Virus record (IMG/VR): IMGVR_UViG_2681813313_000012
Coordinates: 1 to 5,059 of that record
Reading direction: 5' to 3' (one strand)
DNA: 5,059 bases
Source: a virus
Lineage: Duplodnaviria > Heunggongvirae > Uroviricota > Caudoviricetes
In this document: one piece after another, positions 1 to 3,000 of the stretch
Position numbering within the stretch: the first letter of the stretch is position 1
Layout of the letters: each line of letters begins with the position of its first letter
Program-made: the position numbers

Positions 1-3000
1 CCAGCCACTCCATTCAGTTTCGGAGTAACCGTGGCACTGCCGGCGGTGAACACCAGCTCCAGCGTCTGCCAGTCGTTACTGTAATTCCCGAACTCGCCCA
101 ACTTTGTGTTTCCTGCTTTCTTGTGATGCATCAGATTCAGTTTGCCGTCTGTGGTCTGGGTGAAGAACGACATCAGGAACGGATTACCGGTACCCGTCAT
201 CGCCACGACGTCAGGTAACGCTACATCGGTATACAGATAAATTCCCAGACCGAACTGATTGTTGGTCAGTGCGCCTGACAGTCGAAACTTACAGCTCAGT
301 CTGCCACCCCGTGTCAGCAGGGAGACTGCGTCATCCACCGGGCGCGTCAGGGACCAGGTTTTATTGCTCTGCTTGGCGATCTTAAATACACCACCCGACA
401 ACTGAATTCCGCCGTCCTTAATGGTCCAGCCCTGCGCAGCAGCCTCTCCGGCTGTCGGCAGCAGGGAGATTGTGCGAACGGACGTATCTGCAGACGGACC
501 CGATGGCGTGTCGCCGCCGGGCGAGGGTTTGATTTCCGGTGCCTTACCACTGATGAAGGCTGAGGTGCGCCCGGCTGCGTTCAGAATAGCGGTTGCCATA
601 CGATCGGGAATAATGCCACGACGCGCCCATGAGCTGAAATGCGTCGGGCGATTTGATGATACCCAGTTTTTGTTCGTTCGGGATGCCGAACCGTAATAAC
701 CAGACCCGACAATATCAGGATCTTCTGACGGGTTGTTTGTCGGTGTATTAACTCCGCTACCATCGGTCATAAAGGGAACAAAATAAATCTGCTGGGATTC
801 TTTACCTTTATATGCACCATATACCACTTCATATTGCGTACCGTGTTCTTGTTTCCACGCGTATGTCGTGTCGCCACAAATCCAGGGGACTGATGCCGGA
901 CTTCCACCGTGACACTGCGCCGCCAGCCCGGCAAGGTCAGCACGGAACTGCTGTACCATTGCAAGAAATGCTGCTGGCTGCTGGGCGTAACTGGCATTCG
1001 TCATATCGAATTCCCCCTGCATCCAGCATATCGCCAGCAAAACGTTTTTCGGGTTTTTCTGCAATGCTGCCTTCGTGCGGAAAAGCAGATCCTGATATAA
1101 CGGCTTACCCACTCCCCAGCGAGCCGAATCCTGACTGGCCCCCGTGGACTCGCTGAATGTCCCCTCCGTGCCCTGGGTGAATGCCGAACCACCACGACAG
1201 CATGGTACCAGCAGGATCCCCGCATTATTAGGGATATACGGAAGCAGTTTTTTGGCAATATGTAAGCCCTGTCCGACACAGCCGTACTGCCCTTTGCTCA
1301 GGTCAGCCCGGGGATGGTTAATCGTACTCATATCCTGAACATCATGCAGACAATGGTCAGCAGGAATGATGTCGTTAAATACGCATACTTCACCACCGGG
1401 AGTCACTGTGTTACGACGGGCCAGTTGCTTAATGCGCGGATGGGGCGCATCGTATGAATCCGGAAGCGGAAGCCCTTCACCGTAAGCCATGGCATTGGAC
1501 TGCCCGGCCAGTACGATGACGTAGTACCACTCCGGCTCAGTTGCACCACTGACGACCACATCACCTTCTGCTGCAATCGCCTGCATCAGGGTATAAGGGG
1601 TTATGGCCACCGGACTACCAAACGGCTGCCAGCCCTCTTTCAGTTTATGTGTCAGCTTTTCCGCAAGATCTGACGGCGACGCCGCCCTGACAACATCATA
1701 GTGTTTAAATGCCATGAATCCTCCCGGCCGGGATAATATTGTGAGTAAAATGAGGAGCGGGCTGAAGTCCGGAAGTTACAGGACAATGGCAGAAGAGAGA
1801 CAACAGCCCGCAATACGAAAAAGACCGCGCTATTGCGCAGAGTGATTACTGTCGGATATTATTCGCCAGCTGAAATATTACTTCACGTTTTGTTGTTTAT
1901 TCCTTGCCGCCCGCGTCTCCCAGCGCGGGATTTTTTTGTCCATAAGAAAGCCCCTCCGGAGAGGGGCTGGAGAGTGGCGCTATGTGCCATTGCATGGTGC
2001 CGGGTGCCTCCCGGTGAATTCAGTACCAGCACCTGAATCCGCGATTATCCCATATACCTACTCGCTGATTGCCCCTCCGCACAGGGGGATTCACCATGCC
2101 AGTTTCTTTTAACAAACTCCCCGCAAACCAGACAACAGTCAACCGCCTGAATTGTGAGACATTTAAAAAAAAGGCCCGCAAAAGCGAGCCAGGGAAAATA
2201 AGTGTGGCGCGTTGTACTGGATTCGAACCAGTGACCGATTGCTTAGAAGGCAATTGCTCTGTCCGGCTGAGCTAACAACGCAGGATACAGATAATGGACC
2301 GCCTTCGGGGACCCGAACTCTGCGCAACCAGCTTCGAAAGCTGGCGCTCTTTCCTGATGAGCTAATGGCGGTATGTGATGGTGGCCCTTGCTGGATTTGA
2401 ACCAGCGACCTGGCGATTATGAGTCGCTCGCTCTCACCACTGAGCTAAAAGGCCGGGCCGAAAATAATAATCAGATGAAATCAAAAATCAAGCCCTTGCC
2501 TGGATACATATCTGTCTGGCGGGAAGCCATAATAGCGGTGAAATACAGAGATAAAGTAGGCTCTACTTGAATAACCGCATTTTGCTGCTACAGCCTGTCC
2601 ATATCCATGCCGGGAACATAACATATTTACAGCAACCCGCATCCGTTCCTCAAGTAACAAATTACTGAACCTGAGACCTTCATCCTTGAGTTTTTTCTTT
2701 AACAAGCTCTCACTCATATGCAACTGTAGAGCAATCGCACCAAGCGTCCAGCTTGCTGATATATCTGTTTGAATTATCGCTCTGACTTTGGCACTTATAC
2801 TGGATACACATCCACTTAAAAATAATGACATCCGTTCATCTGATTCAAACAGCGACAGGCAGGCCATCATAAGAAACATATCCGTGGTCTCTCCGGAAAG
2901 TCTCTGACTGGTAATTAAAGCCACAGTCAACGCAGGATTGTTGGGTTCCAGCAACAAGTAAAGCGGAATGTCAGTCAGAGGACCTCTCGTCAGCTTATGC

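What the first reader, a model, noticed from the sequence alone, without database searches (positions are those of the whole stretch)
1..1715. Prophage-borne NanS-p-type sialate O-acetylesterase marks a Stx-phage-like late region
The only long uninterrupted frame in the left third of the window encodes a protein with an SGNH/SASA-type GQSN block and an N-terminus (MAFKHYDVVRAAS...) like the NanS-p esterases carried next to stx in Stx-converting phages. These enzymes de-O-acetylate mucin-derived sialic acids and act as a fitness moron. The gene is not in the supplied ORF track because its stop lies outside the window.
Basis: partly seen in the sequence, partly recalled or inferred. Interest (0 to 1): 0.4.

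Follow-up and report, generated by a model that had tools for sequence, protein, structure and literature searches.

The report
Prophage NanS-p sialic-acid esterase gene
The left third of the window holds most of an ordinary, well-known prophage gene (nanS-p) for an enzyme that strips acetyl groups from gut-mucus sialic acids; it sits in a Shiga-toxin-phage-like late region that lacks the toxin genes.

Summary
Window 1715->3 on the minus strand is an uninterrupted 571-codon frame. It starts at an ATG with a GGAGG ribosome-binding site and runs off the left edge. Two E. coli genomes carry 100% identical DNA, and there the gene continues 46 more codons, giving a 617-aa 'SASA family carbohydrate esterase'. 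The protein has the full NanS-p architecture: DUF1737, a NanS-like SGNH esterase and a lectin-like C-terminal domain. The nucleophile Ser73, base His359 and oxyanion Gln72 align with Ser19, His301 and Gln18 of NanS. It is 92% identical to the NanS-p of Stx2 phage 86 and 55% to the 933W/phi24B protein. The surroundings are collinear with phage 933W (ileZ-argN-argO tRNAs, spacer, nanS-p, then holin and lysozyme in the identical genomes), but stx2AB is absent from its slot. An STnc100/PasD-family small RNA lies immediately next to that junction. Related DNA occurs in 2234 of 5426 complete E. coli genomes. Verdict: already known, low interest. I also tested whether the N-terminal domain is a capsid anchor, as a 2026 cryo-EM preprint reports for phi24B. 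The result was mixed, because identical window-type proteins occur with three different head modules.

The parts
3..1715 (-). nanS-p coding sequence, codons 1-571 of 617. The last 46 codons and the stop lie beyond the left edge of the window.
   Evidence: Translation without a stop. Identical full-length CDS in L001 and L002, 617 aa, WP_000874312.1. phrog_143 at 1077 bits over residues 1-570.
1719..1723 (-). Shine-Dalgarno GGAGG a few bases upstream of the ATG at 1715-1713
   Evidence: Read directly from the sequence. The in-frame stop 21 codons upstream leaves this ATG as the start annotated in RefSeq.
1566..1709 (-). N-terminal DUF1737 domain (residues 3-50), loop type 'A' (...PFGSPVAITPYTLMQAI...), followed by a short linker that lacks the SISSP motif
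   Evidence: Pfam PF08410, E=1.6e-15. In the alignment with 933W, phi24B and phage 86 the loop is 3 aa shorter and the linker 11 aa shorter. The domain is a capsid-binding module in phi24B gp84 (preprint read).
579..1541 (-). NanS-like SGNH type II esterase domain (residues 59-379). It holds codons Gln72 (1500-1502), Ser73 (1497-1499) and His359 (639-641).
   Evidence: 3pt5 at E=2e-122, 57.6% identity over 321 columns. Q72, S73 and H359 align with NanS Gln18, Ser19 and His301 (the residue roles are taken from PMC9063846).
453..578 (-). Pro/Ser/Gly-rich interdomain linker (residues 380-421)
   Evidence: Only 34% identical to the 933W linker. No Pfam match covers it.
3..452 (-). C-terminal lectin-like jelly-roll domain (DUF6645), residues 422-571 of a domain that ends at residue 617
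   Evidence: Pfam PF20350, E=3.4e-18. PDB 6yp6 'NanS-p', E=8e-22. 36% identical to the 933W domain and 99% to the phage 86 domain.
1938..2128 (-). Context: STnc100/PasD-family prophage small RNA upstream of nanS-p, with its own terminator hairpin at 1968-1949
   Evidence: Rfam RF02076, 138 bits against a gathering score of 47, full-length match. Terminator-like site. MFE fold z-score -2.3.
2205..2454 (-). Context: tRNA triplet Ile(CAU)-Arg(UCG)-Arg(UCU), equivalent to ileZ-argN-argO of 933W
   Evidence: ARAGORN. Annotated in RefSeq as tRNA-Ile, Arg, Arg. 91.6% identical to the 933W tRNA region.

Best explanation
The frame is the first 571 of 617 codons of an intact nanS-p allele, a prophage-borne sialate O-acetylesterase of a stx-negative lambdoid prophage of E. 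coli. The central domain is a NanS-type SGNH type II hydrolase. Ser73, in the GQSN block, is the nucleophile and His359 the base, working as a Ser-His dyad without a catalytic Asp, as in NanS. Gln72 and a glycine would form the oxyanion hole. The enzyme removes O-acetyl groups from Neu5,9Ac2 and from O-acetylated mucin sialoglycans, which makes the sialic acid usable by sialidases and by the host nan catabolic pathway. The C-terminal jelly-roll domain most likely binds carbohydrate and targets the enzyme to glycans. The gene lies in the late operon, in the order Q, tRNAs, sRNA, nanS-p, holin, lysozyme. It is therefore probably transcribed from pR' under Q antitermination on prophage induction, and the protein probably leaves the cell through phage lysis. 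What is shown here: the intact frame, the domain architecture, the conserved catalytic residues, the synteny and the absence of stx. What is inferred from characterised homologues: substrate, induction and release. The role of the N-terminal DUF1737 domain in this prophage (capsid anchor or not) is unresolved.
For: Intact frame and identical full-length CDS. Pfam DUF1737, SASA and DUF6645 all above cut-off. PDB NanS 3pt5 at E=2e-122 with 57.6% identity, and NanS-p C-terminal domain 6yp6 at E=8e-22. Q72, S73 and H359 align with NanS Gln18, Ser19 and His301 (roles from PMC9063846). Block IV reads RPTH, as reported for the phage 86 NanS-p (PMC10462455). 92% identity to phage 86 NanS-p and 55% to 933W/phi24B NanS-p. 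Gene order in L001 and L002: Q, ORF6N, IS200C, AraC-like, tRNAs, esterase, holin, lysozyme, lysis protein, terminase, lambda-type head. Collinear with 933W apart from stx2AB. Literature: NanS-p alleles of EDL933 and O104:H4 are active Neu5,9Ac2 esterases and support growth on that substrate (PMC8065619). nanS-p is induced by mitomycin C, like stx2a (PMC10462455).
Against: No enzymatic data exist for this allele. [quoted passage not shown] In the window's own genome an IS200C and an IS1203 lie between Q/pR' and nanS-p. They could reduce late transcription, and this was not tested. The last 46 codons are not in the window, so intactness of the 3' end rests on the two identical genomes.
Confidence: 0.9

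Rival explanations
1. The protein is mainly a virion component. Its DUF1737 domain would anchor it, as a hexamer, on capsid hexons, as reported for phi24B gp84. The esterase and lectin domains would then be displayed on or released from the particle and help the phage bind or cross mucus. Benefit to the lysogen would be secondary.
For: The preprint 10.64898/2026.04.10.717836 identifies gp84 (vb_24B_21) in phi24B virions with DUF1737 bound to the central hexons. In 56 dereplicated IMG/VR loci the DUF1737 loop type is associated with the downstream head module: AMI 0.59, with 0 of 2000 permutations reaching that value. The association is stronger than for the catalytic domain (AMI 0.20) or the C-terminal domain (0.24), although the N-domain lies furthest from the head genes. 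Type B occurs with 933W-type heads in 7 of 8 loci and type C with ClpP-capsid-fusion heads in 7 of 7. Phage 86 carries a window-like esterase and C-domain (94% and 99%) but the 933W-type N-domain, together with Traversvirus (933W-group) taxonomy and 933W-like late-gene synteny.
Against: The window's N-domain type (A) is not head-specific. The identical N sequence occurs with lambda-type heads (17 loci) and HK97-like heads (7 loci). Identical full-length proteins occur with two or three different head modules. In the alignment the phi24B anchor residue Tyr42 falls in a 3-residue gap of the window protein, and the SISSP motif proposed as the processing site is absent. In L001 and L002 the prophage has a lambda-type head with its own gpD-like decoration protein. 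Lambda heads are T=7 (my own knowledge), whereas in phi24B binding was seen only on the hexon at the centre of a T=9 face. The loci were sampled with two full-length queries and are phylogenetically related, so the association is not an independent test.
Confidence: 0.2
2. The enzyme acts on bacterial surface polysaccharide, removing O-acetyl groups from O-antigen or capsule. This would help phage adsorption or release, rather than acting on host mucin sialic acids.
For: This is raised as an open possibility in the review PMC8065619. The gene is a late gene next to the lysis cassette. The lectin-like C-terminal domain is highly variable between alleles (36% identity to 933W), as is usual for receptor-facing phage modules.
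Against: The catalytic domain is 57.6% identical to NanS, which is a dedicated 9-O-acetyl-Neu5Ac esterase. Tested NanS-p alleles hydrolyse Neu5,9Ac2 and mucin O-acetyl sialic acids and support growth on them (PMC8065619). I found no evidence for activity on LPS.
Confidence: 0.07
3. The gene is a silent remnant in a decaying prophage. It would be intact by chance, or only recently inactivated outside the window.
For: The window's genome has an IS200C and an IS1203 in the late regulatory region, and the ORF6N gene is truncated. L002 has a frameshifted major capsid gene and an interrupted rem gene. E. coli genomes carry up to 13 matching places each, so individual copies are redundant.
Against: There are 571 codons without a stop. 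The catalytic residues are conserved. The same 617-aa protein is intact in two genomes and in several IMG/VR contigs at 100%. In L001 the head, terminase and lysis genes are annotated as intact.
Confidence: 0.05

Closest known systems
NanS-p of Stx2-converting phage 86 (Stx2-86_gp03, YP_794050.1; 'NanS-p sequence 20' in PMC10462455)
   Same: 92% identical overall, 94% in the esterase domain and 99% in the C-terminal domain. Same RPTH block IV. Same position directly upstream of the holin gene.
   Different: The N-terminal 58 residues are only 59% identical. Phage 86 has the 933W-type DUF1737 loop and a longer linker containing SISSP. Phage 86 carries stx2AB upstream and is classified as a Traversvirus, the 933W group. 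The window's prophage has no stx and a lambda-type head.
NanS-p of phage 933W (Z1466 / ST933Wp42) and phi24B vb_24B_21 / gp84, the biochemically and structurally studied representatives
   Same: Same three-domain architecture, the same catalytic Ser and His, and the same genomic slot between the tRNA/stx region and the lysis genes.
   Different: 55% identical overall: 70% in the esterase domain, 36% in the C-terminal domain and 34% in the linker. The protein is 617 aa against 645. Tyr42 of the capsid-anchor loop falls in an alignment gap. One of four proposed sugar-binding aromatic residues is Leu.
Chromosomal NanS (YjhS) of E. coli, PDB 3pt5
   Same: 57.6% identity over 321 aligned columns. 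GQSN nucleophile block, His301 equivalent and Gln18 equivalent are all present. Same SGNH type II fold by homology.
   Different: NanS is a single-domain protein encoded in the nan regulon. The window protein adds DUF1737 at the N-terminus and a lectin-like domain at the C-terminus, and it is prophage-encoded.

Membership tests
NanS-p (prophage-borne sialate O-acetylesterases of E. coli) | Three-domain architecture: N-terminal DUF1737, central SASA/SGNH esterase, C-terminal lectin-like domain | tested here: met
   Pfam PF08410, PF03629 and PF20350 all above the gathering scores. PDB 3pt5 and 6yp6 hits.
NanS-p (prophage-borne sialate O-acetylesterases of E. coli) | Encoded in a lambdoid prophage late region, downstream of Q, the tRNAs and (where present) stx, and upstream of the holin and endolysin genes | tested here: met
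   Annotated context of 100% identical DNA in L001 and L002. Collinear with 933W and phage 86.
NanS-p (prophage-borne sialate O-acetylesterases of E. coli) | Close sequence relationship to named NanS-p proteins | tested here: met
   92% to phage 86 NanS-p and 55% to 933W/phi24B NanS-p. phrog_143 at 1077 bits.
NanS-p (prophage-borne sialate O-acetylesterases of E. coli) | Esterase activity on Neu5,9Ac2 or mucin O-acetyl sialic acids | not testable with these tools
   Needs an enzyme assay. Activity is documented only for other alleles (PMC8065619).
SGNH hydrolase, NanS subtype (type II fold, Ser-His dyad) | Nucleophile Ser in the GQSN block, catalytic His in block IV/V, oxyanion Gln preceding the Ser | tested here: met
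   Q72, S73 and H359 align with Gln18, Ser19 and His301 of NanS. The residue roles are from PMC9063846.
Stx-converting phage | stxA and stxB operon between the tRNA genes and nanS-p | tested here: not met
   Only 489 nt separate tRNA-Arg (2205) from the nanS-p start (1715). The 933W homology jumps from the terminator upstream of stxA to 42 nt downstream of stxB. No stx is annotated in L001 or L002.
DUF1737 capsid-decorating proteins (phi24B gp84 type) | N-terminal domain bound to capsid hexons, with the protein present in virions | tested here: inconclusive
   The domain is present. The loop type is associated with the head module overall, but the window's type occurs unchanged with three different head modules, and the Tyr42 anchor is not alignable. 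A direct test needs virion proteomics or cryo-EM.

The most novel reading that the evidence does not exclude
DUF1737 may be a general capsid-docking module whose alleles are matched to head type across lambdoid phages. On that reading the window's NanS-p would be displayed on a lambda-type T=7 head as a mucus-directed esterase and lectin, a phage-benefit structural enzyme rather than a lysogen-benefit moron. The association between N-domain type and head type (AMI 0.59, stronger than for the parts of the gene that lie closer to the head genes) fits this for types B and C. Type A, the window's type, appears unchanged with three different head modules, which argues against it for this particular protein.
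Probability: 0.15. Interest if true: 0.45.

Novelty: already known. Interest (0 to 1): 0.12.

Why it matters
The finding itself changes little. nanS-p genes are among the commonest cargo of E. coli lambdoid prophages: related DNA is in 41% of complete genomes, with up to 13 places per genome. Their enzymology, C-terminal domain structure and allele diversity are published. The locus is useful as a clean example of the 'stx-empty' form of the Stx-phage late region, with an STnc100/PasD-family small RNA adjacent to the toxin slot. It also adds one data point to the open question of whether NanS-p serves the lysogen (mucin sialic acid use) or the virion (capsid decoration, per the 2026 phi24B preprint).

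Tried and rejected
1. NCBIfam gave no hit for the esterase. This says nothing either way, because Pfam, PHROGs and the PDB all hit strongly.

2. I looked for stx in the window. The spacer is too short, and alignment to 933W shows the operon is absent from its slot.

3. I tested whether the DUF1737 allele tracks the head module, which would support a capsid-anchor role. Overall there is a significant association. I do not treat it as evidence for this protein, because the window's exact N-domain, and even identical full-length proteins, occur with lambda-type, HK97-like and ClpP-fusion heads. The loci are also a biased and related sample.

4. I tried to read the primary enzymology papers (Saile 2016, PMC5038053; Rangel 2016, PMC5038012; Feuerbaum 2018, PMC7106450). 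None is held, so I could not compare this allele with the individual tested EDL933 and O104:H4 alleles. The best matches in the two O157:H7 genomes listed are about 87% identical at the DNA level.

5. I considered a pseudogene or remnant reading and rejected it, because the frame is intact and the catalytic residues are conserved.

6. I did not run structure prediction or the large protein-database searches. The solved-structure hits (E=2e-122 and 8e-22) already settle the fold.

Full report
**1. The observation**

Window 1-1715 contains, on the minus strand, an uninterrupted frame of 571 codons (window:3-1715:-). It begins MAFKHYDVVRAASPSDLAEK and carries GQSN at residues 71-74. The ATG is at 1715-1713. 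A stop lies 21 codons upstream in the same frame, and GGAGG (reverse complement of 1719-1723) precedes the ATG, as read from the sequence. No other ORF in this stretch exceeds 114 aa. By my own arithmetic, 571 stop-free codons in random sequence have a probability of about 1e-12. The frame runs off the left edge, which is why it was missing from an ORF list that needs a stop.

**2. Identity of the gene**

- Pfam finds three domains above their curated cut-offs: DUF1737 (residues 3-50), SASA sialic-acid-specific acetylesterase (66-262) and DUF6645 (467-569).
- PHROGs places the protein in phrog_143 at 1077 bits over residues 1-570.
- Among solved structures, residues 59-379 match E. coli NanS/YjhS (3pt5) at E=2e-122, and residues 422-569 match the chain deposited as 'NanS-p' (6yp6) at E=8e-22. 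According to PMC10462455, that chain is the crystallised C-terminal domain of phi24B vb_24B_21.
- Identity to NanS is 57.6% over 321 aligned columns.
- NanS is described as an SGNH type II enzyme with catalytic Ser19 and His301, no catalytic Asp, and Gln18 plus a glycine in the oxyanion hole (PMC9063846).
- In the alignment, Gln72, Ser73 and His359 of the window protein occupy exactly those positions. The chain numbering is offset by 11 from the native numbering. I inferred this offset from all three residues agreeing.
- Block IV reads RPTH, a variant already noted for the phage 86 NanS-p (PMC10462455).

**3. Full length and closest relatives**

Megablast finds 100% identical DNA in two complete E. 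coli chromosomes from Korean human isolates. In both, the CDS is 1854 nt, 617 aa, WP_000874312.1, annotated 'SASA family carbohydrate esterase'. The 571 residues are its exact N-terminal part.

| Compared with | Overall | N 1-58 | Esterase | Linker | C-domain |
|---|---|---|---|---|---|
| Stx2 phage 86 NanS-p | 92% | 59% | 94% | 93% | 99% |
| 933W ST933Wp42 (identical in sequence to phi24B vb_24B_21) | 55% | 57% | 70% | 34% | 36% |

The gene is therefore a mosaic allele within the known NanS-p diversity. Variation in all three domains has been catalogued (PMC10462455).

Prevalence is high. DNA related to window:1-1715 is present in 2234 of 5426 complete E. coli genomes, and 1392 genomes have a match covering at least 80% of it. 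There are up to 13 places per genome.

**4. Surroundings**

All genes in the window are on the minus strand. In transcription order, from the right edge to the left:

- The left end of an IS1203 (4961-5059). It is 100% identical to the IS1203 end in L002 and cuts off the first 21 codons of an ORF6N / anti-repressor-like gene (4464-4960).
- An IS200C. Its tnpA is at 3761-4219 and its STnc490 5' UTR RNA at 4229-4352.
- A small HTH ORF (3331-3528) with a weak TrmB-like match.
- An AraC/XylS-type regulator (2481-3194) that resembles YdeO and GadX.
- Three tRNAs, Ile(CAU), Arg(UCG) and Arg(UCU), at 2205-2454.
- A 489-nt spacer.
- nanS-p.

In the identical genomes the Q antiterminator lies further upstream. 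Downstream come holin, lysozyme, a lysis protein, terminase and a lambda-type head with portal, S49 protease, decoration protein and major capsid protein.

Alignment with 933W gives three matching segments:

- Window 2470-2164 matches the pT, ileZ-argN-argO and terminator region at 91.6%.
- Window 2161-1991 matches the sequence starting 42 nt after stxB at 71%.
- Window 1840-1608 matches the nanS-p upstream region and start at 89.7%.

The layout is therefore the 933W layout with stx2AB absent from its slot. This makes it a stx-negative, Stx-phage-like late region.

Rfam finds a full-length STnc100 match in the spacer (RF02076, 138 bits, window 1938-2128, minus strand). Its terminator hairpin is at 1968-1949. 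It begins about 35 nt downstream of the junction where stx2AB lies in 933W. [quoted passage not shown]

**5. Mechanism**

Shown here:
- an intact esterase domain with the NanS catalytic residues
- a lectin-like C-terminal domain
- placement inside the late operon

Inferred from homologues:
- Hydrolysis of O-acetyl groups from Neu5,9Ac2 and mucin sialoglycans, which allows growth on these substrates. This is demonstrated for EDL933 and O104:H4 alleles (PMC8065619).
- Induction with the late genes. nanS-p rises with mitomycin C and norfloxacin (PMC10462455 and PMC8065619).
- Carbohydrate targeting by the C-terminal domain, proposed from the crystal structure. Three of its four proposed aromatic residues are conserved as aromatics in the window protein: F488, Y493 and F518, with L584 at the fourth position.

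**6. The one open point: the N-terminal domain**

A 2026 cryo-EM preprint reports the following for phi24B gp84 (vb_24B_21). It is found in virions. Its DUF1737 domain forms hexamers on the central hexons of a T=9 capsid, with Tyr42 as the anchor. The protein is proteolytically processed near a SISSP motif.

The window protein has a different DUF1737 loop, 3 aa shorter, with Tyr42 falling in the gap. It also has a shorter linker without SISSP.

I tested whether the N-domain type follows the head module, using 160 IMG/VR loci.

- Three loop types exist.
- Four head modules lie downstream: lambda type, HK97-like with an S78 protease-capsid fusion, ClpP-capsid fusion, and 933W type.
- The cross-table:

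| N-domain type | lambda | HK97-like | ClpP-fusion | 933W |
|---|---|---|---|---|
| A (window) | 34 | 13 | 2 | 0 |
| B (933W/phi24B) | 0 | 1 | 0 | 7 |
| C | 0 | 0 | 7 | 0 |

- The association is stronger for the N-domain (AMI 0.58) than for the esterase (0.20) or the C-domain (0.24).
- It survives dereplication: AMI 0.59, with 0 of 2000 permutations as high.

However, the window's exact N-domain sequence occurs with both lambda-type and HK97-like heads. Identical full-length proteins occur with two or three head types. For the window's type A the capsid-matching idea is therefore not supported. For types B and C it remains suggestive. The sample is biased by the two queries used and is not phylogenetically independent.

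**7. Verdict**

The region is stx-negative, and 'moron' may be too narrow a label. This is an already known kind of gene and an ordinary allele, and I score it low in interest.

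Noticed in passing
window 1938-2128 (-): Full-length match to Rfam RF02076 STnc100, a prophage sRNA family related to PasD (138 bits against a gathering score of 47). It lies in the spacer between the tRNAs and nanS-p, about 35 nt downstream of the junction where stx2AB lies in 933W. The matching 933W segment, starting 42 nt after stxB, is only 71% identical.
   Followed up: partly
window 2161-2164, compared with L004 2412/3745: Clean 'stx-empty' junction. Homology to 933W jumps from the terminator upstream of stxA to 42 nt downstream of stxB, so the 1.33-kb toxin operon is absent from its slot.
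   Followed up: yes
window 2205-2454 (-): tRNA triplet equivalent to ileZ-argN-argO of 933W, 91.6% identical. ARAGORN labels the CAT-anticodon tRNA as Met, whereas RefSeq and the 933W annotation call it Ile.
   Followed up: partly
window 2481-3194 (-): A 237-aa AraC/XylS-type regulator that resembles YdeO and GadX (NCBIfam hits below cut-off; phrog_1450). Prophage-borne AraC-like regulators PsrA, PsrB and PatE control acid resistance and type III secretion in EHEC (PMC10877973). I did not test whether this gene is one of them.
   Followed up: no
window 3761-4352 (-): IS200C inserted in the late regulatory region. Its tnpA is at 3761-4219 (Y1_Tnp, E=2e-37) and the STnc490 Hfq-binding 5' UTR RNA is at 4229-4352 (146 bits).
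   Followed up: partly
window 4961-5059 (+), with 4464-4960 (-): The left end of IS1203 truncates the ORF6N / anti-repressor-like gene, removing its first 21 codons. The otherwise 100% identical prophage in L001 has no IS1203 here, and in L002 the IS sits at window-equivalent 3500-3503. IS1203 has therefore moved recently, and the window comes from a third variant of this prophage.
   Followed up: yes
L006-L165 (IMG/VR loci), nanS-p N-termini and downstream 10 kb: There are three DUF1737 loop types. Type B (933W-like) occurs with 933W-type heads in 7 of 8 loci and type C with ClpP-capsid-fusion heads in 7 of 7. Type A (the window's) occurs with lambda-type, HK97-like and ClpP-fusion heads, even as identical proteins.
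   Followed up: partly
L001 20400-24275 (same prophage, outside the window): An AAA-family ATPase, an HNH endonuclease, a frameshifted tyrosine recombinase and a DUF5677 protein sit between the replication genes and hokD. This may be an inserted defence-like cassette. I did not examine it.
   Followed up: no
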